Source of the DNA: an uncultured Gammaproteobacteria bacterium
Lineage (GTDB): Bacteria; Patescibacteriota; Microgenomatia; UBA8517
Assembly (NCBI GenBank): GCA_965231135.1
Contig: OZ246419.1
Span: 81,028 to 145,027, forward strand
Direction: 5' to 3'
Length of the DNA: 64,000 nucleotides
Below are positions 35,516 through 55,463 of the stretch, one piece after another. The notes below the pieces were generated by a model that was not told where the DNA came from, did not search any database, and saw only the letters and a program-made list of their open reading frames with translations. The stretch's first letter is position 1, and every line of letters starts with the position of its first letter. Made by a program: the position numbers and the translations under genes.

Positions 35516-36283
35516 ATGTTGAAGAAAATAGTCGGCTTATTTATATTTTTGTTTTTAGGATTATTTTTAAAACCTGGGTTGGTTAATGCCGAAACAATGA
35601 CGTGTAGCGAGACCAGCTTTGATTCTTCTAGAAATTTGCAGATTTGTTTAGGAGGTTTCACGAATGCAAATGAAATAAATAAAGTTAGTTTCAGTGCTTC
35701 TTGTACAGGCTCTGGGGCTGGAATTGTTAACGGTACTACTGTTCAGTGTTCATTTTCCCAACAAGATGCTAATTTATCTGGTATTAGTGCCGTTCCAGAT
35801 AATTCAAATCCTGGAACTTATTATGGATGTTTTACATTACCAACCATAAATCCTGAAGTAAAATCGGCTCGTCTTACTTTTATTGATGGATCTTCTTCTT
35901 GTACTTTAAATGCAGACACATCCACAAATGCGAGCGGTGATGTTTTCCCCGGGCAGAATTCTGGTCCTGGAATTACCCCTACTTGTGTAGTAAATGGAGG
36001 TGGAACTGGTATAAATACAGCTGTTGGTTGTATTCCAATTGATAATCAAAGTGATTTGATTGGCTTTTTCTTACGCTGGGCAATTGGAATTGGCGGAGGA
36101 ATTGCGTTTTTGTTAATTCTTTTTGCAGGATTTCAGATTATGACTTCAAGAGGAGATCCAAACAGACTTAAAGCTGGGCAAGAGCTTATGACTTCTGCTA
36201 TTGCAGGACTTTTACTGTTAATTTTTTCAGTAATAATTCTTCGAATCATTGGAGTTGATATACTACAAATAAAAGGACTTTAA
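35516..36283 (+). CDS. Secreted Cys-rich protein fused to a C-terminal pilin-like two-helix module
   Basis: Sec signal (VNA-ET), ~180-aa Cys-rich domain, then LIGFFLRWAIGIGGGIAFLLILFAGFQIMTSRGDPNRLKAGQELMTSAIAGLLLLIF matching the consensus of the seven downstream paralogs. Confidence 0.55.
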   Translation: MLKKIVGLFIFLFLGLFLKPGLVNAETMTCSETSFDSSRNLQICLGGFTNANEINKVSFSASCTGSGAGIVNGTTVQCSFSQQDANLSGISAVPDNSNPGTYYGCFTLPTINPEVKSARLTFIDGSSSCTLNADTSTNASGDVFPGQNSGPGITPTCVVNGGGTGINTAVGCIPIDNQSDLIGFFLRWAIGIGGGIAFLLILFAGFQIMTSRGDPNRLKAGQELMTSAIAGLLLLIFSVIILRIIGVDILQIKGL

Positions 36284-36285
36284 AA

Positions 36286-36621
36286 ATGAATTTACTTGCA
36301 CAATCACCTATTGATTTTAATGGTATTCAAAGTAAAGGTGAGCCTGATGCAACTTTTTCTGCCAGTACCAAAATTGGAGATATATTAGCAGCTGCTATCC
36401 CCTGGATATTTACAATTGCCGGCATGGTTCTGCTTGTTTATTTAATTTTTGGAGGAATTCAATTAATGTTATCTCGCGGCGATCCGAAAGCTGCCGGAGC
36501 TGCTAAAGCACACATTACAAATGCGTTAGTTGGATTTATAATTATTTTTATTGCTTATTGGGTTGTACAACTTATTGGAATTGTGTTTTATTTACCGGGG
36601 ATAACAAATATATTTAAATAA
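36286..36621 (+). CDS. Pilin-like two-helix membrane protein, paralog 1
   Basis: N-terminal MNLLAQ motif; TM - GGIQLMLSRGDPKAAGAAKAHITNALVG - TM architecture shared across the array. Confidence 0.55.
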   Translation: MNLLAQSPIDFNGIQSKGEPDATFSASTKIGDILAAAIPWIFTIAGMVLLVYLIFGGIQLMLSRGDPKAAGAAKAHITNALVGFIIIFIAYWVVQLIGIVFYLPGITNIFK

Positions 36622-36623
36622 TT

Positions 36624-36938
36624 ATGAAATTAATAGCTCAAGGAGTTGATATTGGTTCACAGTTTAACTCTCCATATGGAGAGACAGCTACGCTTGGTAA
36701 TTTAGTATCTTTAATAGTAAAAATTGGATTTGTAGTTTCGGGAGTTTTAATTTTATTTTTTTTAGTATTTGCAGGATTTTCAATTATTCAAGGAGCTGGA
36801 AGCAATAATCCAGATGCCGCTAAGCGCGGGCAGCAGGCAGCAAGTGCCGCTGTAATTGGTTTCGTTGTTGTTTTTGCAGCCTACTGGATAGTTAGACTGA
36901 TTGAGGTTATAATTAAAGTACCTATTATTTCACAATAA
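36624..36938 (+). CDS. Pilin-like two-helix membrane protein, paralog 2
   Basis: MKLIAQ N-terminus; AGFSIIQGAGSNNPDAAKRGQQAASAAVIG loop between two TM helices. Confidence 0.55.
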   Translation: MKLIAQGVDIGSQFNSPYGETATLGNLVSLIVKIGFVVSGVLILFFLVFAGFSIIQGAGSNNPDAAKRGQQAASAAVIGFVVVFAAYWIVRLIEVIIKVPIISQ

Positions 36939-37298
36939 ATGAGAAACTTAATCGCTCAAGCAACAGCACCAGATATAGGACATGTTCCCCTTCCTACAGC
37001 ACTAAGCAATTTTGGTGATGTGAGCGGTGGCGGAATTGGGAAGTTTTTAAATTTAGTTCTTAAATTACTAATTGTTGGCGGCGGAATTTATGCTCTTTTT
37101 AATTTAGTTTTAGCTGGATATGCATTTTTGTCTGCAGGAGATGACCCGAAAAAAGTTGAGGGTGCGTGGGCAAGAATCTGGCAGACTGCAATAGGATTAC
37201 TGTTTATGGCAGGAGCTTTCGTACTTGCGGCGATATTTGGGAAACTTATATTTAACGACTGGACATTCATTCTTAATCCACAAATTCCAATTATATGA
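36939..37298 (+). CDS. Pilin-like two-helix membrane protein, paralog 3
   Basis: MRNLIAQ N-terminus; AGYAFLSAGDDPKKVEGAWARIWQTAIG loop. Confidence 0.55.
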   Translation: MRNLIAQATAPDIGHVPLPTALSNFGDVSGGGIGKFLNLVLKLLIVGGGIYALFNLVLAGYAFLSAGDDPKKVEGAWARIWQTAIGLLFMAGAFVLAAIFGKLIFNDWTFILNPQIPII

Positions 37299-37654
37299 AA
37301 AATTTAATTGCTGACATACCATTAGGACCAGGGTTTCAAGGAGTGGGACCTTTAGGGACAGGACAAGCATCAGATGCTGGAACAACCTTTAATAGCGCAC
37401 TTTCAAAAGTAATTGGAGTTATGACTGTGGTTGCCTTTATTTGGTTTACTTTTCAAATGGTAATTGGCGCTATTCGCATACTTGCATCTGGCGGAGATAA
37501 AGGGGCAGTTGAAGCAGCACGCAAACAAATTACAACTGGAATTATTGGAGTTGTGATTGTTGTTGCTGCAATCTTTATAGTGAGCTTACTTGGGACAATA
37601 CTTGGGTTGCATAATATTTTGAACCCCATTTGTATAATAAATAATAATTGTTAA
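37295..37654 (+). CDS. Pilin-like two-helix membrane protein, paralog 4
   Basis: MKNLIAD N-terminus; ILASGGDKGAVEAARKQITTGIIG loop; 4-nt overlap with previous gene. Confidence 0.55.
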   Translation: MKNLIADIPLGPGFQGVGPLGTGQASDAGTTFNSALSKVIGVMTVVAFIWFTFQMVIGAIRILASGGDKGAVEAARKQITTGIIGVVIVVAAIFIVSLLGTILGLHNILNPICIINNNC

Positions 37655-38037
37655 TTATGTATAAAAATTTAATAGCACAAGCACAAGGAGGTAGTGGAGG
37701 TTCTGGAGTTAGTAATGGCGGGATAACTAATCCTGCAATTGGGAGTTTAAATAACAATACTGGAGTAGGTTTTGTACAAGAGCTTATCCCCTCTTTGATT
37801 AGTCTTGCATTTCTTGCCGGTGCAATTTTATTTTTCTTTATGTTACTTATCGGAGGTATTCAGTGGGTGACAAGCGGCGGAGATAAAGGAGCAGTTGAGG
37901 CAGCACGGGGAAGAATTGCACAAGCTTTGGTAGGAATAGTTGTACTTTTTAGTGTTTTTGCTATAATAAAACTCATTGAAGGGTTTTTCGGAATTAATAT
38001 TTTAACTCTTGACATTAACCCTTTAATAATTAAATAA
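37648..38037 (+). CDS. Pilin-like two-helix membrane protein, paralog 5
   Basis: MYKNLIAQAQ N-terminus; GGIQWVTSGGDKGAVEAARGRIAQALVG loop. Confidence 0.55.
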   Translation: MLIMYKNLIAQAQGGSGGSGVSNGGITNPAIGSLNNNTGVGFVQELIPSLISLAFLAGAILFFFMLLIGGIQWVTSGGDKGAVEAARGRIAQALVGIVVLFSVFAIIKLIEGFFGINILTLDINPLIIK

Positions 38038-38047
38038 TAAAATACAA

Positions 38048-38425
38048 ATGATGAATTTACTCGCACAAGCACAAAGTGGAACAGGCGGAACAACAGGTGA
38101 ACAAACAATTAATTTACAGCCACAAGCTGGTTTAGTTCCCAGTGTTAGCGGTATAACAATAAGTAGTCTTCTGGGTGGTGCAATTAATTTAATTTTGGTA
38201 GCTGCTGCTTTGATCTTTTTTATAATGCTTGTGATTGGTGGAGTTCAGTGGATCCTTTCTGGAGGAGACAAAGGACAAACTGAAGCTGCAAGAGGAAGGA
38301 TTACAGCTGCTTTAATTGGTTTGGTAATAGTATTTGCCGCTTGGGCAATTGCAAGTTTGGTTGGAAGTTTGTTTGGAATTAATATATTTAGTTTGCAGAT
38401 AACTCCAATATCTAGTTTTAAGTAA
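38048..38425 (+). CDS. Pilin-like two-helix membrane protein, paralog 6
   Basis: MMNLLAQAQ N-terminus; GGVQWILSGGDKGQTEAARGRITAALIG loop. Confidence 0.55.
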   Translation: MMNLLAQAQSGTGGTTGEQTINLQPQAGLVPSVSGITISSLLGGAINLILVAAALIFFIMLVIGGVQWILSGGDKGQTEAARGRITAALIGLVIVFAAWAIASLVGSLFGINIFSLQITPISSFK

Positions 38426-38478
38426 TTTGATTTATTTCTTGCCTATTCCTTGTTTAATTCTTCTTTTTCATTTACAAT

Positions 38479-38772
38479 TTGATTATGAACCCACCAGAAC
38501 CTTTGACTGGACTACAAAATATCTTTAGCAATATTGTTTCAATTGCTATTGGGCTTGCTGGAATTGGTTTTTTTGTGATGTTTGTTGTAGGAGGATTTAA
38601 TTACTTAACAGCAGGCGGTGATGAGCGAAAAGTACAAGGAGCAAGACAAACGCTTACATATGCAATTGGTGGACTTGTTTTAATAGCACTTGCTTATTTA
38701 ATATTAAAACTTATTTCGGATTTCACTGGAATAACGGGAATATTAAATTTCCAAATCCAACAAAATCCATAA
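38479..38772 (+). CDS. Pilin-like two-helix membrane protein, paralog 7 (divergent, lacks NLIAQ)
   Basis: GGFNYLTAGGDERKVQGARQTLTYAIGG loop between two TM helices. Confidence 0.5.
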   Translation: MIMNPPEPLTGLQNIFSNIVSIAIGLAGIGFFVMFVVGGFNYLTAGGDERKVQGARQTLTYAIGGLVLIALAYLILKLISDFTGITGILNFQIQQNP

Positions 38773-38794: not shown

Positions 38795-41700
38795 TTGTAT
38801 AATTCAAGTATATTTATGAAATTGAAGTTAGTTGTTTTGTTGTCTTTAATTTTAGGAAGTTTGTCACTTCTTTTTATTAATAAAAATGTTTTTGCCAGAG
38901 ACGGCGGACCTGCTGCGAGCGACCCTGATATAAACATAACCTTAAGAAATTGGAAACCTGCTAATTTTCCGAACCAATTAATAGACCATCCGCAAAATAC
39001 AGATTTAACCGGGGCGCCACAGCTCTTGTATACTTTTGGGTCTCCAAACTTTACAAATTTTTATCAAATTAATGCCGTCGGGAGCAATAGCCCGGACTCT
39101 TCAAATGTTAATTCACCTGGAGCTGCAACGATTTCGTTTCAATCAGGAGATGACATAAAAGCACCAGTAGTGGGGAGAAGCATTGGGAGCGGATTTAATT
39201 ACACAATTTTATATGCCACTTCAACTGATATTGTGATTCATAACGGACTGGAAGATAGTGTTGCTAGCGGCTACACAATTCATTTTTTAAATATTAATGT
39301 TAACCCCACTCTACTTCAGATGTATAACGATAATGAAGCAAAAGGGCGAACACAACTTGTTGCCATTCCCTGTGGCTACGTGATAGGAACTGCAAGCGGA
39401 GATCCGTTTGTATCTATTCGAGATACGGGAAGCTTTATGGACCCCAGATTTAAAGACTGGTGGAGTTCTGATTCACCTGGGGTTTGTAATGATGTGCCGC
39501 CTGGATATGTAACTGCTGGAAGCAGTACTCAACCGGCGACAAACACCGAGCCTTACGACCTGTCCACAAATGTACCATGCAATGAAACCAATTATGATAT
39601 TTATAAAAGTACGGGAGGAACCGGAGCAGCTACCGAATTTCATTCTCTCAGGCCATATCCTGCAAGCCCATGTTACAAACAAACTCCTCCAAGTGAAATG
39701 GCAGCTCTTTGTTCAAATGATTTGGTTGTCATTAAACAAACTTCACCTAACTCTGCGTATCAGACAGGTTGCACTACTCCTGCTGCCGATGGGTCATATT
39801 CATGTAACTACGCAAATGTTCCAGAAAGCGCACAAGTTTCAATTGATTTAACTGGAGCACAATTGCCAATTCTCGGGAACACGCAAGATGTGCCGAATGG
39901 GACTTGGACAAGCCCAAACACGAGCGCTAATAATTTAGATGCTGCTCAGCGGGTAAATAATTATGTGAGCTGGTATTTAAACGGAGTTGTTGATAAAGCG
40001 GAAAACGATTTTTCAAGCAGCGATCCAAACTATTTAGTTAATTACTCTGGGCCACTTAATAAATTATTGCCTTTTGTCGGGCAAATACTTTCAAGAGAAA
40101 ATATTATAACTAGAGCAGCTAATTCTGTAGCTGGACCTGCAACTTCTACTGATGAACAGGGGCTTCACAATAAAATAGTTGAATGCGATTTCCCTGAGCA
40201 AGCTGGAAGCATGCCATGTTATTTATATACAATAACCAGATTTATAAGTTTTCTTCAGGCAGTAAGCCCTAACAATACAATGACTCAAGGGCAAGGGGAT
40301 GCTATTGCTAATTTGTCTACTATAAGAAGAATTACTGATTGGGTAGGCCACACCCCTCCACTTGAACAAGATTTTTCAACTGTAAGCGGATGGCTGCAAG
40401 CTTATTCACAATGGCTTGGGAATATTTGTATAACACCAATTTTTGGCTGCCCAACAACTCCCTCAACATGGTGGGCAAAGTTTTTTGCCTTTGTTCCTTT
40501 TTCTACAAACGAAGACAGAGTCGGTACTATTGGAACCAACCAAATAGCAAACACAACGCCAGCAAATAATTCTTGTAGAACGACAGGGGCTCCTTGTTCA
40601 ACTACTTGCGCTAACGGGAAAACTTTTAGCGACAGCTGCCCTGGGAACGGATCGTTTGATTCATGCAGCCAGTGGGCGCAACAAGCGTGCGGTACGGTAA
40701 ACAGCACTCCTCTATCAAATAACGGAGATACTACAAGCTTTGGGCAAACTAATCCTGGAGATGTGACTTTTACACCAAGTAATGGGACAAATAATATACA
40801 TAATTTATATTTTGCTCATGCACAAGAAGATACAGAGCTTGCAACACAATTGCAAAACACTTTTAAGTCAATTGATGCAACAAGCAGCCATGATACCAAT
40901 ACTGCGCCTCAAATCGGGCCTGGATGTACGATTTTAAACACTAGAACAAATCCTGGAGATAATTTATATGGAGATATCGATAGAACAAAAGCACAAGGAT
41001 ATGCGCAAGACGATCAAAAAATATCGGGAACAGTAAATTTTACCGGAAGCTATACTTGTACTTTTAAACCAATTGTTAGTGTCTCAGGCAGCACGTTTGA
41101 AAACGGAGGAGGAATTAGCGGAAACTTAACATATACATGTACATCAGCGACTGCAAATCTTTCAATTTATACGCAGAGCCCGGAAGTCGGAAACATCTGG
41201 GATCAGCTTGTCGGCGGATCACAATCAATTTTTAAAAGATTTTTCCCACAAACCGGAGCCAACTCTCCAGTTACTCAAATCACAGAAACACCAGCACAAA
41301 CGAATATTACTTATCAAGCTGGAGGAGATGATGAAGTAACTGCCGGAAATAGCGGCGGGGGCGGAGCGACAGCAACTGCAAATTTATATATTCCATATGT
41401 GGGCGGGATAAAAGATTATTTTTTAGATGCAATACAAACAGCTCTTAGGCCTCAGGGAATGGGAACATCCCCTGCATTAACAGCCTCCTCTAATTCGTCG
41501 AGTTCCAGTTCCGGGCCAATTTCCTGTACACCTGATGATTTTGCAGCAGCTTTTGGAGACCAAGCTAAAAATGCATCATGCATTGCCAATGCAGAAAGCA
41601 GATGTATACCTGATAACCATAATTTATCCTGTTTAAAAATTGGCGGTACACAGGATTATAGTTATGGACTTTTTGGAATAAATTTACTTGCTCATCCTGC

Positions 41701-41989: not shown

Positions 41990-42003
41990 GATATAATTTA
42001 TTT

Positions 42004-42459
42004 ATGAAGGAATTTATATTTAAATATAGAAAAATTTTAATTTTAATATTGGGGATTTTTATTGTAATTATTTTTGTTTTTATTTATTTAAATTCACGAG
42101 GACAAAATGTTTCGACAGATCAAAATAATTTTAAAGCCCCAACAGGTGTAAAAGTTAATGTTAACAACCAGACAGTAAATAATTTTTACAAAAGCGATAC
42201 TTTTACCTATCCTACTGGAAATGCTGTGATTGACGAAAACCCTTATTACCAAATTGCATATACTTCAAATAATCAAGAATTTTTAATAACAATTTTATCT
42301 TCAGACCCTAATTCACAAAACCTGGCAGAGCAAGATTTTGTGAGTAAGCTTTCGATATCGCAAAGTACTGCATGTAAATTAAATGTGGAAGTAAGAAGTT
42401 ATTCAAATCTAAACATTACAAGCAGTCCAAATCTTTCTAAGCTTAGTTTCTGTAAGTAA
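42004..42459 (+). CDS. Small secreted/membrane-anchored hypothetical protein
   Basis: Start moved to MKEFIFKYRK to avoid overlap with upstream gene; single N-terminal TM helix. Confidence 0.4.
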   Translation: MKEFIFKYRKILILILGIFIVIIFVFIYLNSRGQNVSTDQNNFKAPTGVKVNVNNQTVNNFYKSDTFTYPTGNAVIDENPYYQIAYTSNNQEFLITILSSDPNSQNLAEQDFVSKLSISQSTACKLNVEVRSYSNLNITSSPNLSKLSFCK

Positions 42460-47885: not shown

Positions 47886-48095
47886 ATCTGCTCGGAATTA
47901 AACCCTTGTTAGTTTTCCGACTATACGGTAGCGGCACTGCGAGGGAATTACACCCTACTTCCTTAAACACAAAGATAATTTTCATATTAAACTTTCATTC
48001 TTTAAAAACAAGGAGTGTTTTGTGCGTGAAAATGCTATAATGGTTGCTTAAACTGCTTCACAGAGTAAAGTTAAAGTAAGGCATAGTTTTTTAAA

Positions 48096-49316
48096 ATGGA
48101 ACAGCATCCAGTACCACAAAATATTAGTAGCTATCAGTTTCACCTTGTGGGGGACATGACGCTGAAGCAGTTTTTGGAAATTGGAGGAGGAGTCTTGGTT
48201 GCAGTTTTATTTTATGCAACTGGGCTTCCAGGGATAATTAAACTTCCATTAATTTTAATATCTTGCGGACTTGGCGCCGCACTTGCTTTTGTACCACTTG
48301 AGGAACGTCCACTTGAACAATGGATATTTGCCTTTTTTAGATCTGTATACTCGCCTACTCAATTTCATTGGGATAAAAAACAGGACGTTAAATATTTTGC
48401 AGATGAGAGCGCGACTGAAAATACTGGAGCATCAACCCAAAATACAAAAACAAACCCTGTTTCAAATATTCCATTTTTGAATAAACTCGATTCATCTGAG
48501 AGCTCGTATCTATCTAAACTTGCGGGGGTTTTTAATCCAACTGTTTCACAAACCGCTACTCCAGCTATAGAAACAAAACAAGAAATACAAACACATAACG
48601 AAACAGTGATCAATCACCCAAGCTTTAATCCTAACCCTATTAATTCTGCTTCGCAGAGCGATTCAACACAAACACAAACTACAAACACGCAAACAATTCC
48701 ACAGATAAACGCAAACACTGACAATTCAAGAATAAATGTCACAGCAAGCTTTAACACAAATAGCTCAGGAGATATTTTGACAGAACACATTCAAGGCGGA
48801 GAAACTCCAATACAAGCTACGCCGTCCGTACAACAACCCAAGGAAGTTGTTGTTCCAACAAGCGGACCAATATCTGTTGAACCAACAATTGAAGAGAGAC
48901 CAAAAATTGTAGTACAAGAAATTAAAAGACCTGTTGAAAAGATTGATATCACTCAAACTGCTGTAAACCCAACACTTATTGGGGGTGCAGTTGGCGATGC
49001 ACAACAAGCTAGCTTTTCAGTGAACGCTGCACCACCTTCTTTGCCTACAATCCCTAATACAATTTCTGGTCAAGTGATGGATTCAACAAGTCATATAATT
49101 GAAGGGGCTATACTTGAAATAAAGGATGCTGAAGGACGAGCTGTACGAGCACTTCGCACAAATAAGGCAGGACACTTTTTGATTGTTACACCGCTAATTA
49201 ACGGAAAATATAATATCGTACTTGAAAAAGAAGGATATAATTTTGAACCGATTGAATTTGAAGTAAACGGAGGTATTATTCAGCCAATTGCTATTCGAGC
49301 AAAAGCAATAAATTAA
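48096..49316 (+). CDS. Membrane protein with N-terminal two-TM module, Thr/Gln-rich linker and C-terminal carboxypeptidase-regulatory-like beta domain
   Basis: Two TM helices in first 90 aa (possible VirB3/PrgI-like module); C-terminal ISGQVMDSTSHIIEGAILEIKDAEGRAV...TNKAGHFLI...GKYNIVLEKEGY matches the CarboxypepD_reg pattern. Confidence 0.5.
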   Translation: MEQHPVPQNISSYQFHLVGDMTLKQFLEIGGGVLVAVLFYATGLPGIIKLPLILISCGLGAALAFVPLEERPLEQWIFAFFRSVYSPTQFHWDKKQDVKYFADESATENTGASTQNTKTNPVSNIPFLNKLDSSESSYLSKLAGVFNPTVSQTATPAIETKQEIQTHNETVINHPSFNPNPINSASQSDSTQTQTTNTQTIPQINANTDNSRINVTASFNTNSSGDILTEHIQGGETPIQATPSVQQPKEVVVPTSGPISVEPTIEERPKIVVQEIKRPVEKIDITQTAVNPTLIGGAVGDAQQASFSVNAAPPSLPTIPNTISGQVMDSTSHIIEGAILEIKDAEGRAVRALRTNKAGHFLIVTPLINGKYNIVLEKEGYNFEPIEFEVNGGIIQPIAIRAKAIN

Positions 49317-49317: not shown

Positions 49318-50058
49318 ATGCAAAACAACAATCAACAAAATCAGTCTCAACCAATACAAAAAACTCCCAACAAAACAGTTGATAATGCAAAAAACATGAT
49401 TGGAAAGATTCCTTTTTTGAATCTTCCTGATTTACCGCTTATTTCTACAACACAGGATGAACTTCCAATTGCTGATATAACTGACGATTTAGTTTTATTT
49501 AAAGATGGAGGAGCAGCTTTGGTCATGGAAACTACTTCACTTAACTTTGGATTGTTATCTGAAAAAGAACAACAAGCCGTAGTTTATTCATATGCTGCAC
49601 TTCTTAATTCACTTTCTTTTTCAATACAAATACTTGTTAGATCTCAGCGAAAAGATATAAGCAATTATTTAACTTATTTAGCTGAAGCTGCTAACAAGAT
49701 TTCCAATCCTAAACTACAGGTTGTTATGAACTCTTATAGGACTTTTATTGCTGAGATTGTTAAAAAGAAAAATGTTTTAGGAAAGCGATTTTTTATCGTT
49801 GTACCATTTTCTCCACTGGAACTTGGAGCTAAACAATCTTTTTCGACAGTCACAAAACGAGGGCCACTTCCCTTTCCTAAAAGTTATATTTTGAAAAAAG
49901 CACAAGTGGCGCTTTATCCAAAACGAGATCATTTAACAAGACAGGCTGGAAGACTTTCTATAAAATTAACACAATTAAATACAAACCAATTAATAGAATT
50001 ATTTTATGAATTTTATAATCCGACGCCGCCAGCAATTACTGATAAAGGAATCAAATGA
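49318..50058 (+). CDS. VirB4/TrbE N-terminal domain encoded as a separate ORF
   Basis: LPIADITDDLVLFKDGGAALVMETTSLNFGLLSEKEQQAVVYSYAALLNSLSFSIQILVRSQR matches the CagE_TrbE_VirB N-terminal signature; stop overlaps downstream start in ATGA. Confidence 0.55.
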   Translation: MQNNNQQNQSQPIQKTPNKTVDNAKNMIGKIPFLNLPDLPLISTTQDELPIADITDDLVLFKDGGAALVMETTSLNFGLLSEKEQQAVVYSYAALLNSLSFSIQILVRSQRKDISNYLTYLAEAANKISNPKLQVVMNSYRTFIAEIVKKKNVLGKRFFIVVPFSPLELGAKQSFSTVTKRGPLPFPKSYILKKAQVALYPKRDHLTRQAGRLSIKLTQLNTNQLIELFYEFYNPTPPAITDKGIK

Positions 50059-51809
50059 AAAACTCTAAACCACAGATTTCGAATCCATTAATTGAATATG
50101 CAAAAGGTGAAATGAGCGTTCAAGATATTATTGCTCCAAAAGAATTTGAGATTGATTTTGATTATGTAAAAATTGGAGACACTTATCTTCGAACTCTTTT
50201 TGTGGGAGGGTATCCGAGATTTGTAACTCCAGGATGGCTTGAACCTGTTATTAATTTTAATCATTCAATGGATATTTCTTTTTATATTTATCCAGTTGAA
50301 GGCAAAGATGTACTTGATGATTTGAAAAGAAAAATTACAGAAATGGAAGCTGAAATATCAACTGATATACAGCGCGGGAAAATAGTTAATCCATCAACTG
50401 AGGCAAAACTAGAAGATGCGCGAGCGCTTCAGGAGCAGCTTGTGAAAGGAGCTGAAAGATTTTTTGAGTTTTCATTTTATATAACTATTCCTGCTGCAAC
50501 CTTGGAAGAACTTAACCATGTAACAAAACAAGTAGAATCAACGCTTGGATCACTTTTGATTGTAGGCAAAAAAGCTTCTCTTGATATGGAGAGAGGGTTT
50601 TTGTCTACAGGACCGATTGGATTTGACAGACTTTCAATAACGAGAAACATGGATACAACTTCTCTTGCCACAACATTTCCTTTTACATCTGCAGAATTGT
50701 CTTCTGATACAGGAATTCTTTATGGAATAAATCCTCAAAATGAATCATTTATTATTTTTGATCGCTTTAGTTTGGAAAATTATAATATGACAATCTTTGC
50801 TACTTCTGGAGCTGGAAAATCTTTCTTTGTGAAACTTGAAAGTGTACGATCTTTAATGCTTGGAAGCGAAATAATCATTATTGACCCTGAGGCGGAATAT
50901 AAACCTTTAACTGATGCAGTGGGCGGAGAATATATTTCTTTTTCTTTTAATAGTCCTGCTAAAATTAATCCTTTTGATTTGTCGCAGATTTATGAAGAGG
51001 GAGAAAACCAACTTGGACTTAAAATACTTTCGCTGCATTCACTTTTCAGAGTTATTATGGGAGAACTAAATGCAACACAGGATGCCATGCTTGACCGCGC
51101 TCTTGTAATGACATACCGCTCTAAAGGGATTACACAAGACCCTGGGACACAAACTAAAGAGCCGCCGCTTATTGAGGATCTTTATAAAACATTGATTGGA
51201 ATGGAAGTACCTGAAGCACTTGACCTTGCTGCACGAATTGAAAAATATGTAAAAGGATCATTTGTTGGAATTTTTGATCAACAAACAAATATTGATATTA
51301 CAAACCCTTTTACTGTATTTTCTATTCAAGACCTTCAGGAAGTACTTCGACCGATTGCAATGTTTATAATATTAGACTTTATATGGACAAAAGTGAAAAA
51401 AGATAAAAAGAAACGCTTATTAATTGTTGATGAAGCCTGGATTATGATGAGATATCCAGATACGGCACAGTTTTTATGGAGCGTTGTGAAGCGGGCACGT
51501 AAATATTTTTTGGGGCTTACTACAATAACTCAAGATGTGGAAGATTTTTTGGGACAAGATATTGGAAAAGCTATTGTTACAAATTCATCGCTTCGTGTTT
51601 TATTGAAACAATCCCCTGCTGCAATTGATAAAGTTGGAGATTTGTTTTATCTTTCACAAGGAGAAAGGCAACTTCTCATGGCAGCAAACGTTGGCGAAGG
51701 AATATTTTTTGCAGGACCACACCATGCACCAATTCGCGTGGTTGCATCACCTGAAGAATATAAACTTATAACTACAAAGCCGAGCGAAGTAATAGACAAG
51801 AAGGTATAA
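50055..51809 (+). CDS. VirB4/TraC/TrbE-family T4SS ATPase (central and C-terminal domains)
   Basis: YLRTLFVGGYPRFVTPGWLEPVIN region, Walker A FATSGAGKSFFVK, Walker B LLIVDEAW, conserved GxTQ and R-finger regions. Confidence 0.85.
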   Translation: MKNSKPQISNPLIEYAKGEMSVQDIIAPKEFEIDFDYVKIGDTYLRTLFVGGYPRFVTPGWLEPVINFNHSMDISFYIYPVEGKDVLDDLKRKITEMEAEISTDIQRGKIVNPSTEAKLEDARALQEQLVKGAERFFEFSFYITIPAATLEELNHVTKQVESTLGSLLIVGKKASLDMERGFLSTGPIGFDRLSITRNMDTTSLATTFPFTSAELSSDTGILYGINPQNESFIIFDRFSLENYNMTIFATSGAGKSFFVKLESVRSLMLGSEIIIIDPEAEYKPLTDAVGGEYISFSFNSPAKINPFDLSQIYEEGENQLGLKILSLHSLFRVIMGELNATQDAMLDRALVMTYRSKGITQDPGTQTKEPPLIEDLYKTLIGMEVPEALDLAARIEKYVKGSFVGIFDQQTNIDITNPFTVFSIQDLQEVLRPIAMFIILDFIWTKVKKDKKKRLLIVDEAWIMMRYPDTAQFLWSVVKRARKYFLGLTTITQDVEDFLGQDIGKAIVTNSSLRVLLKQSPAAIDKVGDLFYLSQGERQLLMAANVGEGIFFAGPHHAPIRVVASPEEYKLITTKPSEVIDKKV

Positions 51810-51815: not shown

Positions 51816-54800
51816 ATGGTTCCGCTTGAACTTATTAATTCAGAGAATTTAGGACTTGCTTTAGAATCTTTTTCATACTTTACACAACATCCTCAAGAAA
51901 TATCTTATGGGAAGATAAAAAAAGATGAACTTATTGATTTTATCTTAGATGTAACCAATCAAGAAGATATTAATAAAGCAATTTCTGTATTAAATAAGCT
52001 TTATAGAGAAAAACTTGCTGAAGAAAATAAACCTGTAGCTCCTCCCCCGCAACCAAGCGTAACAGTTCCACTTAATTCAAAAGATTTGGTTGCAGCTCTT
52101 GATAAATATATTGCTGACAAAAAAGAACAAGCGAGACTTTACGATGAGTTTGTTGGCAGCTTTGAAAGACAAGAGGAAGCAAAAGCTTACCAAATGAAGC
52201 TTGAAGATGAAGCACAAATCAGACAAATGATCCGTCAAGATGATCAAAGGTTTATTCAGGAAACTGTAAAGCGAACTGCAAAACAACAAAAAATAACTAA
52301 TGAACAAGCAAAAGAGTTAGTTCAACAAAGAATTAATAATTTAAATAAGACAACTCCTCAATTTAAAACAAGAGTTGCAGAAGAACTGCGAAAAAGTATT
52401 GCAGTAAAAAATGAAGTGCTTCCTGCAGAGACAGAAGAAAGAATCACACAAGCTGTAAATGATTACACTGATCGCGGAATTGTTCCTGATTTAAGAAAAA
52501 TAAAAGCTTTTGAAGATCAACCTAAATCAAAAGAAGAAGTAAGAGAGGAAATAATTCAGGCTGTTACTAGTTCTGCAAGCGAAAAATTAACAGCAGAAGC
52601 TCAAGAAAAAGTAGATAAATTAGTTGATGAAGTTATTAAGGAGGGAAGAAAAATTGATAACGATGAGGTAGTCGCAAGAGTAAGGCTTGCTGAGCCAATT
52701 ATTGTAGCGCCAGAACAAAAAACTGTGCCTGTTGTTTTAAATAAAGAAGAAGTAAGAATTTTAGATAACGATCTTCAAGAATTACAAACTAGCAGAGAAC
52801 AATTTATTGAAGATAAGGCAACTAAAATTGCGAGTAACTTAAGAAATTCAGGGCTGGTAAAAAATTTGACTCCCAAACAAGTTAATCAGATTTCAACAGA
52901 AATTTCTCGCGACAATGCAGAAAAATTAGAACCTTTAGCAAAGCAGGTTGAAGGAAAAACAATAGAAGACAGACAAGTATTGCTTTCACAAATACAAAAA
53001 CCAGCTAACCCAGTTGCCATATTAGGACCTGCAACCGACCCTAAATCGTCTATCTATCAAAATATTCCAGATGCACAAATTATAGCTGCGAAAATGGAGA
53101 AATTAAGAATAAGAGCTGCTACTGAAGAAGATTTTATTGAAAATGGATTGTCAGCAGAATATGACAAAAACATAATAACTGCTTTGAGAGGAGATCCTCT
53201 TGAAAAATTTCAAGAAGTTGAAGAAGAAGAAAATAAAAAAGGTTATGAGTTTGATTTTAATAAAGCATATGATTTATATCAAAAGTTTTTTAGGAACCAA
53301 GAAACTATTATTACTTCTGCTGAAACTGCAATACAACTAGCGCAGCCTGAAATTATTCCTTTTATTTTTGATGCAAGTATTGGATCTTATGCAGGATTTA
53401 CAATTGCATCGTCAATTGTAGCTGAAGCAAGTAGTAATGCAATAGCAACACAAGTTTTTAATCCCCGACTTCTGCAAATCTCAAACGCAATGCTTCCATC
53501 AACTAGTTTTGCATTACCTGGTGCAACAGGAGTAACGATAAGCGAAGGAGTTGTAGGACAACTTGCTGGGTACATATCACTTGGAGGGGCGCAAGGGGTA
53601 CCTGTTTTTATTATTACAGGAGGACAGGCTGGAGCAACACTTCTTGCTGAAGGAGCAACAACTTTTTATTTGGGAGCTCCTCAAGCAGTTGCAGCTCTCG
53701 CTGAAAGTGGTGTAGCAGAGCTTGGAACGGGAATTTTTGCTGAAGGATTAACAACTGCAGCAAGCCTTGGAGCAGAAGGTGGAGTAGTTGCTGCTACGGC
53801 AGTTGGCGGAACAGAACTAGCAGTTGCAGGAACTGGAGCTGCAGCCGCTACCGCAACCACTGCAGCTGGGGCTGCTACAGCTGCCACCGGAGCATTAGGC
53901 GCACTTGCCGGATTTATTGCAACACCTCTTGGAGCTTTAATTACAGGATTTTTGGTTAGTAAAATTCTACCTTTAATTAAGAAATATATTGTTCCTATTT
54001 TTGCCGGAATTGGTGCATTAGTTGGAGGAGTTGTTTTTGGAGGATTCGGAGTTTTGGGAGGGGCAGTAGTTGGGGCAGGACTTGCAGGAGGATTAACAGC
54101 TGGAACAATAGAAGGAGCTGTAGCGACAGTTACTGGAGGAATTGCAGCACTTGGAACAGCGTTTGCGACGGCAATTATTGGGCCATTTATTGCTGCTTTA
54201 ATTGGAATTCCAGTTATTGTTGCTTTAATTTTATTTATTATAAATAGCGGAGCCTATGTGGTACCTCAAGGGACTGGTTTTTCGCTAGGAACAGGCGGAG
54301 GAGTTAATATTAGTGAGCCATGCGATACTGCTTCTATTCCAGGAAATCCAGCTGCTGCTGCAGTTTGTATAGTTGATGCCCTGATTCAATCTAATTTAAA
54401 TCCTCTAAATTCGACTATGTTTACATCCACAAATTGGAGCGGTTTTGTAAGTTCATTACCAGCTCCTGTAGTAAAACCAATTCACGATGTTACTGCAAAT
54501 AATTTTAATCTTCAATGTACAGCTCTGGTTGCAGCAAGCGCCGCTTATGCTTATAGTCAAAACTTTTTACTTAATCACCCAAAAGCTTGCGGTTATCTTT
54601 ATACACCACCAAGCGGTTATACAGCAATACACGGAACCGCAGGAATTGCTGCAGGAGATTTTTTTATAATTGATGGAACTCCAAATTGCAGTTCTGGAAC
54701 AGCAGGGCATATTGGCGTGGTAGAATCAGTTGACGGAGCATTAATTAGCTGTGCTGATGCTAATTATATTGGACCTGGAGCGGTGAGAGTTGCTCATGGA

Positions 54801-54845
54801 TGTTTTGCGTTATCACAAATTACTGGATATTTAAGAAAACAATAG
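51816..54845 (+). CDS. Giant membrane protein (1009 aa) with coiled-coil N-terminus, Gly/Ala-rich multi-TM core and C-terminal CHAP-domain peptidoglycan hydrolase
   Basis: C-terminal ...LQCTALVAASAAYAYSQ...GDFFIIDG...GHIGVVESVDGALISCADANY matches CHAP catalytic Cys and His; central AAGAATAATGALGALAGF low-complexity hydrophobic region. Confidence 0.6.
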   Translation: MVPLELINSENLGLALESFSYFTQHPQEISYGKIKKDELIDFILDVTNQEDINKAISVLNKLYREKLAEENKPVAPPPQPSVTVPLNSKDLVAALDKYIADKKEQARLYDEFVGSFERQEEAKAYQMKLEDEAQIRQMIRQDDQRFIQETVKRTAKQQKITNEQAKELVQQRINNLNKTTPQFKTRVAEELRKSIAVKNEVLPAETEERITQAVNDYTDRGIVPDLRKIKAFEDQPKSKEEVREEIIQAVTSSASEKLTAEAQEKVDKLVDEVIKEGRKIDNDEVVARVRLAEPIIVAPEQKTVPVVLNKEEVRILDNDLQELQTSREQFIEDKATKIASNLRNSGLVKNLTPKQVNQISTEISRDNAEKLEPLAKQVEGKTIEDRQVLLSQIQKPANPVAILGPATDPKSSIYQNIPDAQIIAAKMEKLRIRAATEEDFIENGLSAEYDKNIITALRGDPLEKFQEVEEEENKKGYEFDFNKAYDLYQKFFRNQETIITSAETAIQLAQPEIIPFIFDASIGSYAGFTIASSIVAEASSNAIATQVFNPRLLQISNAMLPSTSFALPGATGVTISEGVVGQLAGYISLGGAQGVPVFIITGGQAGATLLAEGATTFYLGAPQAVAALAESGVAELGTGIFAEGLTTAASLGAEGGVVAATAVGGTELAVAGTGAAAATATTAAGAATAATGALGALAGFIATPLGALITGFLVSKILPLIKKYIVPIFAGIGALVGGVVFGGFGVLGGAVVGAGLAGGLTAGTIEGAVATVTGGIAALGTAFATAIIGPFIAALIGIPVIVALILFIINSGAYVVPQGTGFSLGTGGGVNISEPCDTASIPGNPAAAAVCIVDALIQSNLNPLNSTMFTSTNWSGFVSSLPAPVVKPIHDVTANNFNLQCTALVAASAAYAYSQNFLLNHPKACGYLYTPPSGYTAIHGTAGIAAGDFFIIDGTPNCSSGTAGHIGVVESVDGALISCADANYIGPGAVRVAHGCFALSQITGYLRKQ

Positions 54846-54848
54846 AAT

Positions 54849-55463
54849 ATGAGTAGAAAATGGAAAATAATAATTGCTGGAGTTGTAATTTTTATAGTTA
54901 TTATAATTATTTCTTTTCTGACTTCAACTCAAAAAAACCAAATTCAAGGACCGCTTACTATAACAAGCTCAGTACCTTCCAACCAAGCAAGTAATGTTAA
55001 TGTTTTTGATCCAATTACAATAACTTTTAATCAAAATATAAATCCTGCTTTGATTGGTGTTACATCAACTCCAAACGAAAACTGGAGTATTTCTCAAAAT
55101 TCACCAGCCACAATTACAATTAACCATACACTTTATCTTCAAGAAAACACATCATATCAACTCTCAATTAATCAAAGCGGAGTCTCTATTGGAATATTAA
55201 ATTTTAAAACAGCTCAAGACCAAAACGATCCGCGGCAATTACAACAATTACAGTCAGATCTTAATAAAGATTATCCCCTTGCATCACTTACACCTTACGA
55301 AACTGCTGATTTTAAAGTAGTTTACAGTGCACCACTTACACTGGAAATAGATCTTAAAAGTGCTATTAGTTCACAAGATGCAATTTCGCAAGTAAAAACA
55401 TGGGTAAGCACAAACGGAGTTGACCCTTCAACACATACTTACAGGGTAGTTCCTAGTAAATAA
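54849..55463 (+). CDS. Membrane-anchored hypothetical protein with Ig-like beta domain
   Basis: N-terminal TM helix; S/T/N-rich extracytoplasmic part. Confidence 0.4.
   Translation: MSRKWKIIIAGVVIFIVIIIISFLTSTQKNQIQGPLTITSSVPSNQASNVNVFDPITITFNQNINPALIGVTSTPNENWSISQNSPATITINHTLYLQENTSYQLSINQSGVSIGILNFKTAQDQNDPRQLQQLQSDLNKDYPLASLTPYETADFKVVYSAPLTLEIDLKSAISSQDAISQVKTWVSTNGVDPSTHTYRVVPSK

What the first reader, a model, noticed from the sequence alone, without database searches (positions are those of the whole stretch)
35516..55463. Chromosomal type IV secretion-like envelope machine with no visible coupling protein or relaxase
A ~20-kb locus just upstream of dnaN/dnaA encodes a Gram-positive/CPR-style T4SS core. 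It has a VirB4 ATPase with clear Walker A/B motifs, a VirB6/TrbL-like polytopic protein, eight VirB2-like two-helix pilin-like modules, and two giant proteins ending in peptidoglycan-hydrolase folds (lysozyme/SLT-like and CHAP). Small membrane proteins are interspersed. No VirD4-type coupling ATPase, relaxase, oriT-like structure or integrase is visible in or near the locus. This argues against a classical conjugative element and for a dedicated pilus, DNA-uptake or host-contact apparatus of the kind inferred for episymbiotic reduced-genome bacteria. Three unrelated genes on the opposite strand (44165..47885) sit in the middle and could be cargo or effectors.
Basis: partly seen in the sequence, partly recalled or inferred. 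Interest (0 to 1): 0.8.

Follow-up and report, generated by a model that had tools for sequence, protein, structure and literature searches.

The report
Patescibacteria type IV secretion locus
This is the chromosomal type IV secretion system already described for ultra-small Patescibacteria, so the main finding is not new, but a vitamin B12 riboswitch that heads a small operon inside the locus appears not to have been reported.

Summary
Window 35516-55463 holds eight T4SS_pilin paralogues, a PrgI/VirB3-like protein, a TrsD-like protein, a VirB4 ATPase and two giant envelope proteins with weak SLT_3 and CHAP matches. It also holds a 553-aa polytopic protein and sits directly beside dnaN and dnaA. 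No coupling ATPase or relaxase lies in the 64 kb.

The host is a Microgenomates-type Patescibacterium. The gene order recurs in dozens of related genomes, so the locus is inherited vertically and is not a mobile element. All of this is already published (Wang 2023, Cell; Quiñonero-Coronel 2025, Microb Genom). The finding is a new member of a known kind.

Three corrections apply:
- The 553-aa "VirB6" matches no T4SS model, so the call rests on topology and position.
- The middle genes are not three unrelated minus-strand genes.
- A serine recombinase lies 11.5 kb away, behind core genes.

The unexpected part is in the middle. A covariation-supported AdoCbl-II cobalamin riboswitch (47903-47975, minus strand) heads the 330-aa gene. 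In relatives, that gene and the hypervariable large protein (668 aa here) form one operon, divergent from PrgI-TrsD-VirB4. I found no report of this. Its link to secretion is only inferred.

The parts
35516..36283 (+). 255-aa protein with a signal peptide, a Cys-rich outside domain of about 150 aa and a C-terminal two-helix pilin module. Candidate minor or tip pilin.
   Evidence: PF18895 T4SS_pilin E 9.8e-6, 26.0 bits (gathering score 26.6), residues 185-244. Hydrophobic helices at 190-208 and 229-247. The family HMM recovers 43 pilins in relatives.
36286..38772 (+). Seven tandem VirB2-like pilin paralogues of 97-129 aa: 36286-36621, 36624-36938, 36939-37298, 37295-37654, 37648-38037, 38048-38425 and 38479-38772. 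Each has two hydrophobic helices flanking a conserved G-G-D-x-x-K loop.
   Evidence: PF18895 scores of 40.8, 29.6, 17.1, 29.1, 29.3, 39.9 and 42.1 bits. A repeated 45-nt motif with a period of 353-386 nt. Orthologous arrays in L004, L008, L009 and others.
38795..41989 (+). 1064-aa secreted or anchored giant protein with one N-terminal hydrophobic helix, a Cys-rich body and a C-terminal lysozyme-like (SLT_3) domain. Candidate VirB1-type wall-lytic or surface component.
   Evidence: SLT_3 E 2.7e-4 to 9.7e-4, below the gathering score. 4 of 15 orthologues hit SLT_3, the best at 1.4e-9. Orthologues lie in 14 loci at the same position.
41950..42459 (+). Small single-pass membrane protein. The maximal ORF is 169 aa; the public gene call is 160 aa from 41977.
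   Evidence: One hydrophobic helix at 29-47. No family hit. Homologues in 5 related loci. Gene call in L001.
42495..44156 (+). 553-aa polytopic membrane protein, the positional VirB6 candidate. Homology to VirB6 was not demonstrated.
   Evidence: Signal-like N-terminus plus seven or more hydrophobic helices. Conserved in 27 related loci between the giant protein and the minus-strand gene. No Pfam, NCBIfam, PDB or plasmid hit. 1 of 20 family members hits TrbL at E 0.0015. hhalign against pCF10 PrgH was negative.
44165..46171 (-). 668-aa soluble protein with no transmembrane helix or signal peptide. It fills a conserved slot convergent with the 553-aa gene, and its sequence is hypervariable between genomes. 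Candidate T4SS-associated factor or substrate.
   Evidence: No TM helix and no family or PDB hit. Only 4 homologues among 5.8 billion clusters. A large minus-strand gene of 379-1365 aa sits in this slot in 26 of 27 loci with the 553-aa family. Only 6 are alignable with it. The L087 homologue (E 3e-66) lies directly downstream of the riboswitch-led gene. The AF2 model failed with pLDDT 42.
46236..46889 (+). 217-aa ORF on the + strand, lying between the 668-aa and 330-aa genes. It is strain-specific and probably a recent insertion that split the minus-strand operon.
   Evidence: Gene call in L001. No homologue in 83 related loci. No family hit. A near-consensus promoter-like site, TTGACT-17-TATAAT, at 46200-46228 abuts its ATG.
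46893..47885 (-). 330-aa cytoplasmic protein from an uncharacterised family of about 320 aa. It has a conserved S-P-x-G-G motif, a C-G-x-x-N motif and a C-terminal CxxC...CxC zinc ribbon. It is the first gene behind the cobalamin riboswitch.
47895..47980 (-). AdoCbl-II class cobalamin riboswitch aptamer (Rfam core 47903-47975). Its 3' end lies 17 nt upstream of the 330-aa start codon.
   Evidence: RF01689 at 40.6 bits (gathering score 36.5), E 3e-6 over the whole window. A syntenic copy in L003. In a 7-sequence alignment 97.4% of cells are paired, 12 of 19 pairs show compensatory changes and 0 of 500 shuffles reach this.
48096..49316 (+). 406-aa PrgI/VirB3-like membrane protein with a C-terminal Ig-like (CarboxypepD_reg) outside domain.
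   Evidence: PF12666 PrgI at 29.1 bits (gathering score 27), residues 5-87. PF13620 E 2.2e-7. Present in 73 of 83 related loci directly before TrsD-VirB4.
49318..50058 (+). 246-aa TrsD-like protein, resembling the N-terminal domain of VirB4.
   Evidence: NCBIfam TrsD E 4.5e-7 and VirB4_plasma 3.3e-5, both below cut-off. PF26593 TraC-like, weak. Present in 77 of 83 loci, 60-70% identical in three close relatives.
50055..51809 (+). 584-aa VirB4 ATPase, the signature T4SS motor.
   Evidence: P-loop_TraG 4.5e-32, AAA_10 2.2e-10, DUF87 1.2e-8. Walker A at residue 249. PDB 4AG5 E 2.1e-48. Thousands of Patescibacteria homologues at about 80% identity.
51816..54845 (+). 1009-aa protein in the position of pCF10 PrgK. 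It has a cytoplasmic coiled-coil N-terminal half, a Gly/Ala-rich polytopic segment and a C-terminal CHAP-type peptidoglycan hydrolase.
   Evidence: CHAP E 1.7e-5 to 6.7e-5, just under the gathering score. Orthologues in 52 loci. Their C-terminal domains are M23 in 29, CHAP in 6, NAGPA in 4 and GDSL in 1 of 49. pCF10 order PrgI-PrgJ-PrgK.
54849..55463 (+). 204-aa single-pass membrane protein with a Big_5 Ig-like outside domain, in the position of pCF10 PrgL.
   Evidence: PF13205 Big_5 at 39.2 bits (gathering score 23.6). Homologues in 19 loci.
55468..58182 (-). dnaN (55468-56598) and dnaA (56803-58182), the conserved chromosomal neighbours marking the origin region.
   Evidence: Pfam annotation of the same genes in L001. 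The same neighbours appear in L003-L005 and in most of the 83 loci.

Best explanation
[quoted passage not shown] It derives from the monoderm (MPF-FATA) conjugation machinery, here in a Microgenomates/Woesebacteria-like genome.

What is shown:
- PrgI/VirB3, TrsD and VirB4 form the conserved membrane-associated motor.
- The next gene encodes a large membrane protein whose outside end is a swappable cell-wall hydrolase (CHAP here). A second giant protein ends in a lysozyme-like domain.
- Eight divergent VirB2-like pilins are encoded at the head of the locus.
- No relaxase or coupling ATPase lies in the 64 kb.

What is inferred:
- The motor, with a polytopic channel candidate (the 553-aa protein), assembles a pilus or envelope conduit from the pilins. 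The two hydrolases open the wall.
- The machine serves contact with, or transfer to or from, a host cell rather than self-transfer of DNA. This follows the essentiality of the homologous system for epibiotic growth of Southlakia epibionticum. The transported substrate is unknown.

An operon on the opposite strand is embedded in the locus. In relatives it reads cobalamin riboswitch, then an S-P-x-G-G/zinc-ribbon protein, then a large hypervariable soluble protein. In this window a 217-aa + strand gene has split it. I infer from the usual behaviour of cobalamin riboswitches that the first gene, at least, is repressed when B12 is plentiful. A functional link to secretion is a hypothesis only.
For: - Component identities.
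- Organism and depth of conservation: the 120 best of several thousand VirB4 matches are 77-93% identical, and those with source names are labelled Patescibacteria, Microgenomates or Woesebacteria. The window's own protein lies on an 810,692-bp NCBI contig.
- Synteny: the order pilins, giant protein, 553-aa family, minus-strand gene, PrgI, TrsD, VirB4, giant hydrolase, Big_5, dnaN, dnaA recurs in L003-L027 and, in part, in most of 83 loci.
- No P-loop ATPase other than VirB4 and housekeeping or defence proteins. No relaxase or T4CP family hit in ten large flank ORFs scanned; the other flank ORFs were read by eye only. No flanking direct repeats. GC content like the flanks.
- No tblastn match of the 553-aa or 668-aa proteins in 72,556 plasmids.
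- The order matches pCF10 PrgI-PrgJ(VirB4)-PrgK(hydrolase)-PrgL.
- Literature: essentiality and lack of relaxase or T4CP in Southlakia (PMC10633639). Phylum-wide survey covering the VirB4 clade, TrsD, PrgI, pilin arrays of 2-11 genes and proximity to dnaA (PMC12102498). Review (PMC12857230).
- Riboswitch operon.
Against: - No function was tested, and nothing here shows what is transported or that a pilus is made.
- The VirB6 assignment failed all homology tests. No VirB8-like protein was identified.
- A coupling protein may be encoded elsewhere in the 0.81-Mb genome, which I could not search. The 2025 survey found VirD4 homologues in most Patescibacteria genomes, away from virB4.
- In this window the riboswitch-led gene and the 668-aa gene are separated by a + strand gene. 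Promoter-like sites precede the 668-aa gene, so B12 control of the 668-aa gene here is doubtful.
- Only about 6-8 of 83 VirB4 loci carry the riboswitch.
Confidence: 0.85

Rival explanations
1. It is an integrated conjugative element or its decayed remnant. The T4SS once moved DNA, or still does, using a relaxase and coupling protein encoded elsewhere.
For: The core genes descend from monoderm conjugation systems: order as in pCF10 and VirB4 nearest to 4AG5. A large serine recombinase next to tRNA-Asn lies in the same window. A T4CP elsewhere in the genome cannot be excluded, since VirD4 homologues are common in the phylum.
Against: - The locus sits at the same chromosomal place beside dnaN-dnaA in dozens of species-level genomes, with VirB4 at 57-87% identity. 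That indicates vertical descent under strong constraint.
- There are no flanking repeats, no compositional break, and no relaxase or T4CP in 64 kb.
- The recombinase is separated from the locus by rpoD, dnaG, tRNAs, tmRNA and smpB.
- The 553-aa and 668-aa proteins have no plasmid matches.
- Only 109 relaxases were found in the phylum-wide survey, and only 15 of them lay close to virB4.
Confidence: 0.04
2. It is a DNA- or macromolecule-import machine, of the ComB or Ced type. It pulls host DNA, nucleotides or other large molecules into the epibiont.
For: The system lacks a relaxase or T4CP nearby, as import systems do. The organism presumably cannot make nucleotides. The 2025 paper favours import as a hypothesis. 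In ABY1-class genomes the locus is linked to comF, recG and radA.
Against: No DNA-binding or translocase component was identified here. In Southlakia, comEC-dependent uptake exists separately and is dispensable while the T4SS is essential. That shows the T4SS is not needed for competence, but it does not rule out import of something else. comF in this window (29409-30071) is 5.4 kb from the locus, behind unrelated genes.
Confidence: 0.2
3. It is mainly an adhesion organelle. The VirB4 motor builds a variable VirB2-type pilus for host recognition, and nothing is translocated.
For: There are eight divergent pilin paralogues plus a pilin fused to a Cys-rich outside domain. Pilin arrays are common and variable in the class. 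Several Ig-like outside domains are present (CarboxypepD_reg, Big_5).
Against: Patescibacteria already use type IV pili for adhesion. The locus keeps a channel candidate and two wall hydrolases, which would not all be needed for a pilus alone. No data exist either way.
Confidence: 0.15
4. The riboswitch-led genes have nothing to do with secretion. They are an independent B12-responsive metabolic or salvage module that happens to sit in a variable slot of the locus.
For: - Six or seven of ten metagenome loci holding a 330-family gene show no T4SS genes nearby (L088-L090, L092, L093 and L095; L094 stops inside the gene).
- Most VirB4 loci lack the riboswitch.
- The slot between the minus-strand gene and PrgI also holds unrelated cargo in other genomes, for example a PycTM gene in L005.
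- Cobalamin riboswitches normally control B12 transport, salvage or B12-independent isoenzymes (established knowledge).
Against: The same arrangement recurs in Woesebacteria-like and Daviesbacteria-like loci, with first genes so diverged that only transitive matches link them. That arrangement is a riboswitch and first gene divergent from PrgI, followed by the large hypervariable protein convergent with the 553-aa family. It would not be expected from chance insertion.
Confidence: 0.5

Closest known systems
Patescibacteria-clade T4SS (Southlakia epibionticum SEML1_0006-0019; survey of Quiñonero-Coronel et al. 2025)
   Same: It has VirB4, TrsD and PrgI/VirB3, an array of divergent VirB2-like pilins, and peptidase or lysozyme genes next to virB4. 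There is no adjacent relaxase or T4CP. It is chromosomal and close to dnaA/dnaN, as reported for Microgenomatia and Paceibacteria.
   Different: This genome is not one of the described examples. The polytopic 553-aa protein is not recognisable as VirB6, in line with the survey's remark that VirB6 is scarce in Microgenomatia. The cobalamin riboswitch, the S-P-x-G-G/zinc-ribbon gene and the conserved slot for a hypervariable minus-strand protein are not mentioned in that paper.
Gram-positive conjugative T4SS of pCF10 (PrgH-PrgI-PrgJ-PrgK-PrgL, PcfC, PcfG), MPF-FATA class
   Same: The order VirB3-like, VirB4, large membrane-anchored cell-wall hydrolase with CHAP, then a small single-pass protein is the same. 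It has a monoderm architecture with no outer-membrane core.
   Different: pCF10 has a VirD4 (PcfC), a relaxase (PcfG), MobC and surface adhesins, and no VirB2 pilins. Here there are eight pilins and no T4CP or relaxase in 64 kb. There is no detectable similarity of the 553-aa family to PrgH and no significant BLASTP match of the 1009-aa protein to PrgK (best E 0.14).
Class-II (AdoCbl-II, env8-type) cobalamin riboswitches, Rfam RF01689
   Same: It scores above Rfam's gathering threshold, all four helices are supported by covariation, and it sits immediately upstream of a start codon.
   Different: The controlled gene is not a known B12 transport, salvage or B12-independent enzyme gene. It belongs to an uncharacterised family with no close solved-structure relative, and in several genomes it lies inside a T4SS locus.
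T4CP-less effector or toxin T4SSs (Bordetella Ptl, Brucella VirB) and DNA-uptake T4SS (Helicobacter ComB)
   Same: They work without a relaxase, and Ptl and Brucella VirB also without a coupling protein. They are chromosomal and dedicated to a non-conjugative task (established knowledge).
   Different: Those are diderm MPF-T systems with VirB7/9/10 outer-membrane cores. None of those components is present here.

Membership tests
Type IV secretion system (any class) | VirB4-family ATPase with intact Walker A and B motifs | tested here: met
   P-loop_TraG 4.5e-32 and AAA_10 2.2e-10. PDB VirB4 4AG5 at 2.1e-48. ATSGAGKS and LLIVDEAW seen in the sequence.
Type IV secretion system (any class) | VirB3-like small membrane partner encoded next to VirB4 | tested here: met
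   PF12666 PrgI at 29.1 bits against a gathering score of 27, N-terminal 87 residues of the 406-aa protein. Conserved in 73 of 83 loci.
Type IV secretion system (any class) | VirB6-family polytopic channel protein | tested here: inconclusive
   The 553-aa protein has the right topology and neighbourhood. It has no Pfam, NCBIfam, PDB or plasmid hit. 1 of 20 family members hits TrbL at E 0.0015. hhalign against PrgH gave probability 0.2%. No structure model could be made with an alignment.
Type IV secretion system (any class) | VirB8-like bitopic protein | not tested
   The candidates by position are the 169-aa and 204-aa single-pass proteins. Neither hits a VirB8, PrgL or TcpC model. No structure prediction was available for them.
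Patescibacteria-clade T4SS (MPF-FATA-derived) | TrsD-like protein adjacent to VirB4 | tested here: met
   NCBIfam TrsD 4.5e-7, below the curated cut-off. PF26593 TraC-like, weak. Present in 77 of 83 related loci.
Patescibacteria-clade T4SS (MPF-FATA-derived) | Array of VirB2-like pilins (PF18895) in the cluster | tested here: met
   Eight ORFs, six above the gathering score. All eight retrieve the same family.
Patescibacteria-clade T4SS (MPF-FATA-derived) | VirB4 falls in the monophyletic Patescibacteria VirB4 clade | not tested
   No tree was built. Indirect evidence: the best 120 of several thousand hits are 77-93% identical, and every source name given is Patescibacteria, Microgenomates, Woesebacteria or Saccharimonadales.
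Patescibacteria-clade T4SS (MPF-FATA-derived) | Chromosomal location near dnaA/dnaN (Microgenomatia, Paceibacteria) | tested here: met
   dnaN starts 5 nt after the last gene of the locus, and dnaA follows. The same holds in L003-L005 and most loci.
Conjugative element (ICE or plasmid) | Relaxase (MOB family) with oriT | tested here: not met
   No relaxase family hit in the locus proteins or in the ten large flank ORFs scanned; the remaining flank ORFs were read by eye only. Tested for the 64-kb window only; the rest of the genome was not available. oriT cannot be recognised without a relaxase family.
Conjugative element (ICE or plasmid) | VirD4/TcpA-type coupling ATPase | tested here: not met
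   The only Walker-A ORFs in the window are an ABC transporter, a DEAD helicase, an OLD-family ATPase, VirB4 and DnaA, plus one chance motif in a coiled coil. Window only.
Conjugative element (ICE or plasmid) | Integrase and attachment repeats bounding the element; patchy distribution | tested here: not met
   No flanking repeats. The serine recombinase at 22505-24004 is separated from the locus by core genes. The locus is syntenic across many species.
Cobalamin riboswitch (Rfam clan CL00101, RF01689) | Score at or above Rfam's gathering threshold, with the consensus helices supported by covariation | tested here: met
   40.6 bits against 36.5. 12 of 19 pairs show compensatory changes, 97.4% of cells are paired and 0 of 500 shuffles reach this.
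Cobalamin riboswitch (Rfam clan CL00101, RF01689) | Binds a cobalamin and changes expression of the downstream gene | not testable with these tools
   Needs in-line probing, ITC or a reporter assay.

The most novel reading that the evidence does not exclude
In a subset of Microgenomates the T4SS locus contains a cobalamin-sensing operon. A class-II B12 riboswitch controls an S-P-x-G-G/zinc-ribbon protein of unknown fold. In relatives it also controls the large, soluble, hypervariable protein that occupies a conserved slot between the channel candidate and PrgI. Under this reading the pair are T4SS clients, an adaptor and an effector or substrate. They would be made when host-derived B12 runs low, which would tie secretion-system output to the nutritional state of an organism presumed unable to make B12.
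Probability: 0.2. Interest if true: 0.75.

Novelty: new member of a known kind. Interest (0 to 1): 0.35.

Why it matters
The main claim adds one more example to a system that is already described. In one cultivated species that system is known to be essential for epibiotic growth. It therefore changes nothing by itself.

Two by-products could matter.

The first is the riboswitch. Its aptamer is conserved and shows covariation, and its presumed ligand is a cofactor the cell probably has to obtain from outside. It heads an operon embedded in the secretion locus in several lineages. That gives a concrete, testable handle on when part of this locus is expressed and on which soluble proteins might be its clients. 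The substrate of the Patescibacteria T4SS is the main open question about it.

The second is a set of structural observations on the locus. The slot after the channel candidate always holds a large, fast-evolving, signal-less protein. The hydrolase domain after VirB4 is swapped between M23, CHAP, NAGPA and GDSL types. These are the kind of variation expected of host-specific interaction genes.

Tried and rejected
- AlphaFold model of the 668-aa protein with the only four homologues available: pLDDT 42 and pTM 0.31, so it was not used for fold search.
- A profile search with an 8-sequence alignment of the 668-aa family found only one more protein. An iterated local HMM did not spread from the six alignable proteins to the other 20 positional analogues. 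Pfam on eight large analogues and a PDB profile search gave nothing.
- VirB6 tests on the 553-aa protein all failed or were marginal. These were Pfam, NCBIfam, single-sequence and profile searches against PDB sequences, per-member Pfam, tblastn on plasmids and hhalign against pCF10 PrgH.
- hhalign of the 330-aa family against the L003 403-aa protein was not significant. The relationship is supported only by transitive BLAST and HMM links.
- I considered whether the 217-aa + strand ORF matches the 219-aa + strand ORF of L003. It does not.
- I considered an ICE bounded by the serine recombinase and rejected it, because core genes lie in between.
- Repeat search found no att-like or oriT-like structure, only pilin paralogue motifs.
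An 8-sequence alignment worked.

Full report
**What is in the sequence**

The stretch 35516-55463 is a tight run of 16 + strand genes, interrupted at 44165-47980. Pfam and NCBIfam identify the following components.
- Eight consecutive T4SS_pilin (PF18895) proteins lie at 35516-38772. Six score above the curated threshold, one is at 26.0 against 26.6 bits, and one is weak.
- A PrgI/VirB3-like protein carries an Ig-like outside domain (48096-49316).
- A TrsD-like protein lies at 49318-50058.
- A VirB4 ATPase lies at 50055-51809. It matches P-loop_TraG at 4.5e-32 and has Walker A ATSGAGKS and Walker B LLIVDEAW. Its only solved relative by sequence is the VirB4 of the Gram-positive Thermoanaerobacter, 4AG5, at E 2e-48.
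- A 204-aa Big_5 membrane protein closes the locus.

The two giant proteins end in sub-threshold SLT_3 and CHAP matches. These become credible in context. SLT_3 reaches 1.4e-9 in orthologues. The C-terminal slot of the post-VirB4 giant protein is a peptidoglycan hydrolase in 39 of 49 relatives: M23 in 29, CHAP in 6 and NAGPA in 4. In one relative it is a GDSL lipase. dnaN begins 5 nt after the locus and dnaA follows.

**Where it comes from and whether it is mobile**

The VirB4 is identical to a protein on an 810,692-bp NCBI contig labelled Patescibacteria group bacterium. It has several thousand matches. The best 120 are 77-93% identical, and those with source names are labelled Microgenomates, Woesebacteria or Patescibacteria.

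I fetched 83 related loci and searched them with iterated local HMMs.
- PrgI, TrsD and VirB4 are present in 73, 77 and 83 loci respectively.
- The post-VirB4 giant protein is present in 52 loci and the 553-aa family in 27.
- In Woesebacteria-like genomes the whole order is kept: pilins, giant protein, 553-aa family, a minus-strand gene, PrgI-TrsD-VirB4, giant hydrolase, Big_5 and dnaN-dnaA.

There are no flanking repeats and no compositional break. The only Walker-A ORFs in the 64 kb are an ABC transporter, a DEAD helicase, an OLD-family ATPase, VirB4 and DnaA. The 553-aa and 668-aa proteins have no match in 72,556 plasmids. A large serine recombinase next to tRNA-Asn (22505-24064) and an OLD nuclease form a separate small island. 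That island is cut off from the locus by rpoD, dnaG, tRNAs, tmRNA and smpB. The locus is a vertically inherited chromosomal system and not an ICE.

**It is already known**

- Wang et al. 2023 (PMC10633639) showed that the homologous cluster of Southlakia epibionticum is essential for epibiotic growth. They also showed that it resembles Gram-positive conjugative T4SSs, carries an essential pilin array, and lacks recognisable coupling and relaxase proteins.
- Quiñonero-Coronel et al. 2025 (PMC12102498) surveyed the phylum. They report a distinct VirB4 clade allied to MPF-FATA, widespread TrsD and PrgI/VirB3, VirB2 arrays of 2-11 genes especially in Microgenomatia and Saccharimonadia, rare relaxases, T4CP homologues mostly far from virB4, scarce VirB6 in Microgenomatia, and proximity to dnaA and dnaN.
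- A 2025 review repeats this (PMC12857230).

The order also mirrors pCF10 PrgI-PrgJ(VirB4)-PrgK(hydrolase)-PrgL, without that plasmid's PcfC (VirD4) and PcfG (relaxase).

1. The 553-aa protein is polytopic and well placed. It fails every homology test for VirB6, apart from one family member at E 0.0015 against TrbL. The assignment is an inference.
2. Absence of a coupling protein is shown for the window only.
3. The middle of the locus is not three unrelated opposite-strand genes, as set out below.

**The middle of the locus**

Rfam finds one AdoCbl-II cobalamin riboswitch at 47903-47975 on the minus strand. Its 3' end lies 17 nt upstream of the 330-aa ORF. The closest genome, L003, has one at the syntenic position.

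The 330-aa protein has 99 representative relatives of constant length. They share conserved S-P-x-G-G and C-G-x-x-N motifs and a C-terminal zinc ribbon. Of ten metagenome loci encoding a relative, seven carry an Rfam-threshold cobalamin riboswitch directly upstream. Two more are found by a model I built.

On a seven-sequence alignment the four helices are 97.4% paired. Twelve of 19 pairs show compensatory changes, no shuffle of 500 reaches this, and slid controls give 33-49% pairing. The riboswitch is real.

Its context in relatives is as follows.
- In L087 the order is riboswitch, 330-like gene, then a 668-aa homologue (E 3e-66), then the convergent 553-aa family gene and giant protein. PrgI-TrsD-VirB4 diverge on the other side.
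- L091, L003 and L007 show the same plan.
- L086 shows the divergent PrgI-TrsD-VirB4 side, but the contig ends inside the 330-like gene.
- The model also hits L070 and L072. L074 is confirmed by Rfam. L077 and L082 are hit weakly.
- In these loci the first gene differs so much that only transitive matches link the versions.
- In the window a 217-aa + strand ORF, with a near-consensus promoter-like site at its start, separates the 330-aa and 668-aa genes. It has no homologue in relatives, so the operon looks split here.

**The two proteins of that operon**

The 668-aa protein has no transmembrane helix, no signal peptide and no domain. It has only four relatives in 5.8 billion clusters. A large soluble gene of 379-1365 aa fills the same slot in 26 of the 27 loci that have the 553-aa family. 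Only six of these are alignable with it. These proteins share acidic Pro/Gly-rich N-termini, and a few have a C-terminal hydrophobic tail. Its structure could not be modelled.

**How it most likely works**

Shown:
- the identities of VirB4, TrsD, PrgI and the pilins;
- the hydrolase ends of the two giant proteins;
- vertical inheritance beside the origin region;
- the absence of a T4CP or relaxase in 64 kb;
- a genuine cobalamin aptamer in the 5' leader of the 330-aa gene.

Inferred:
- VirB4, TrsD and PrgI, with a polytopic channel candidate, assemble a pilus or conduit from the eight pilins through a wall opened by the two hydrolases.
- The system serves host contact or transfer rather than conjugation. 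This is by analogy with Southlakia.
- The riboswitch represses its operon when B12 is plentiful, which is the usual direction for this class.

Speculative: the 330-like and 668-like proteins are clients of the machine. The alternative is at least as likely. Under it they form an independent B12-responsive module lodged in a variable slot. Many 330-family genes lie away from T4SS genes, and most VirB4 loci lack the riboswitch.

**Verdict**

The finding is correct and well observed, but it is already in the literature. It is a new member of a known kind, and I score its interest at 0.35. The residual interest is the B12 riboswitch operon inside the locus. I found it in neither the 2025 survey nor full-text searches combining riboswitch or cobalamin terms with Patescibacteria or Microgenomates.

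Noticed in passing
window 47895-47980 (-); also L003:7347-7432, L007:7918-8004, L072:5762-5841, L074:3192-3416, L070:564-706, L086:3593-3677, L087:5882-5966, L091:73-158: A cobalamin riboswitch (AdoCbl-II, or RF00174 in some loci) heads an operon on the strand opposite PrgI-TrsD-VirB4 inside the T4SS locus of several Microgenomates. Covariation is strong: 12 of 19 pairs are compensatory. The 2025 T4SS survey does not mention it.
   Followed up: yes
window 46893-47885 (-): The riboswitch-controlled 330-aa protein belongs to an uncharacterised family of about 320 aa, with 99 representative clusters. It has a confident AlphaFold model (pLDDT 91) that matches no solved structure beyond a PAS-like sub-domain. 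Conserved features are S-P-x-G-G, C-G-x-x-N and a C-terminal zinc ribbon.
   Followed up: yes
window 44165-46171 (-) and the equivalent slot in 26 related loci (e.g. L004:6330-8258, L010:5286-8057, L075:3740-7753): The slot immediately after the 553-aa membrane protein always holds a large soluble minus-strand gene of 379-1365 aa. Its sequence is almost unalignable between genera, although the neighbouring VirB4 is 57-87% identical. Many versions share acidic Pro/Gly-rich N-termini, and a few have a C-terminal hydrophobic tail.
   Followed up: partly
window 53643-54845 (+) and orthologues in 49 loci: The C-terminal enzymatic domain of the giant protein after VirB4 is exchanged between genomes: Peptidase_M23 in 29, CHAP in 6, NAGPA in 4 and GDSL lipase in 1 (L003). 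The membrane segment is the only part conserved.
   Followed up: partly
window 46200-46236 (+): A near-consensus sigma-70-like promoter (TTGACT-17-TATAAT, 11 of 12) ends 8 nt before the ATG of the strain-specific 217-aa ORF. This suggests a leaderless or very short-leader transcript for an inserted gene.
   Followed up: no
window about 15200-24064: A probable small integrated island. A large serine recombinase (22505-24004) overlaps the end of tRNA-Asn (23992-24064, minus strand). The island also holds an OLD-family AAA_15/TOPRIM nuclease (17931-19592) and several orphan ORFs. A homologue of the recombinase sits next to a tRNA and a 330-family gene in L092.
   Followed up: partly
L005:7550-8074 (-): In one relative the variable slot between the minus-strand gene and PrgI holds a gene with a PycTM (Pycsar effector) domain. 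The slot therefore also collects defence-type cargo.
   Followed up: no
L089:7871-8102 (+): A group I intron (Rfam, 115 bits) lies about 0.9 kb downstream of a riboswitch-led 330-family gene in a metagenome contig.
   Followed up: no
window 35516-55463 relative to dnaA at 56803-58182 (-): If the origin lies between dnaA and rnpA, as is usual, the + strand T4SS genes are transcribed head-on to the leftward replication fork. The riboswitch-led minus-strand genes would then be co-directional with it.
   Followed up: no
window 33666-35450 (-): The gene immediately upstream of the locus encodes a 594-aa secreted protein with a coiled-coil region and a SpoIID domain, another cell-wall remodelling protein. 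I did not examine whether it is linked to the T4SS in relatives.
   Followed up: no
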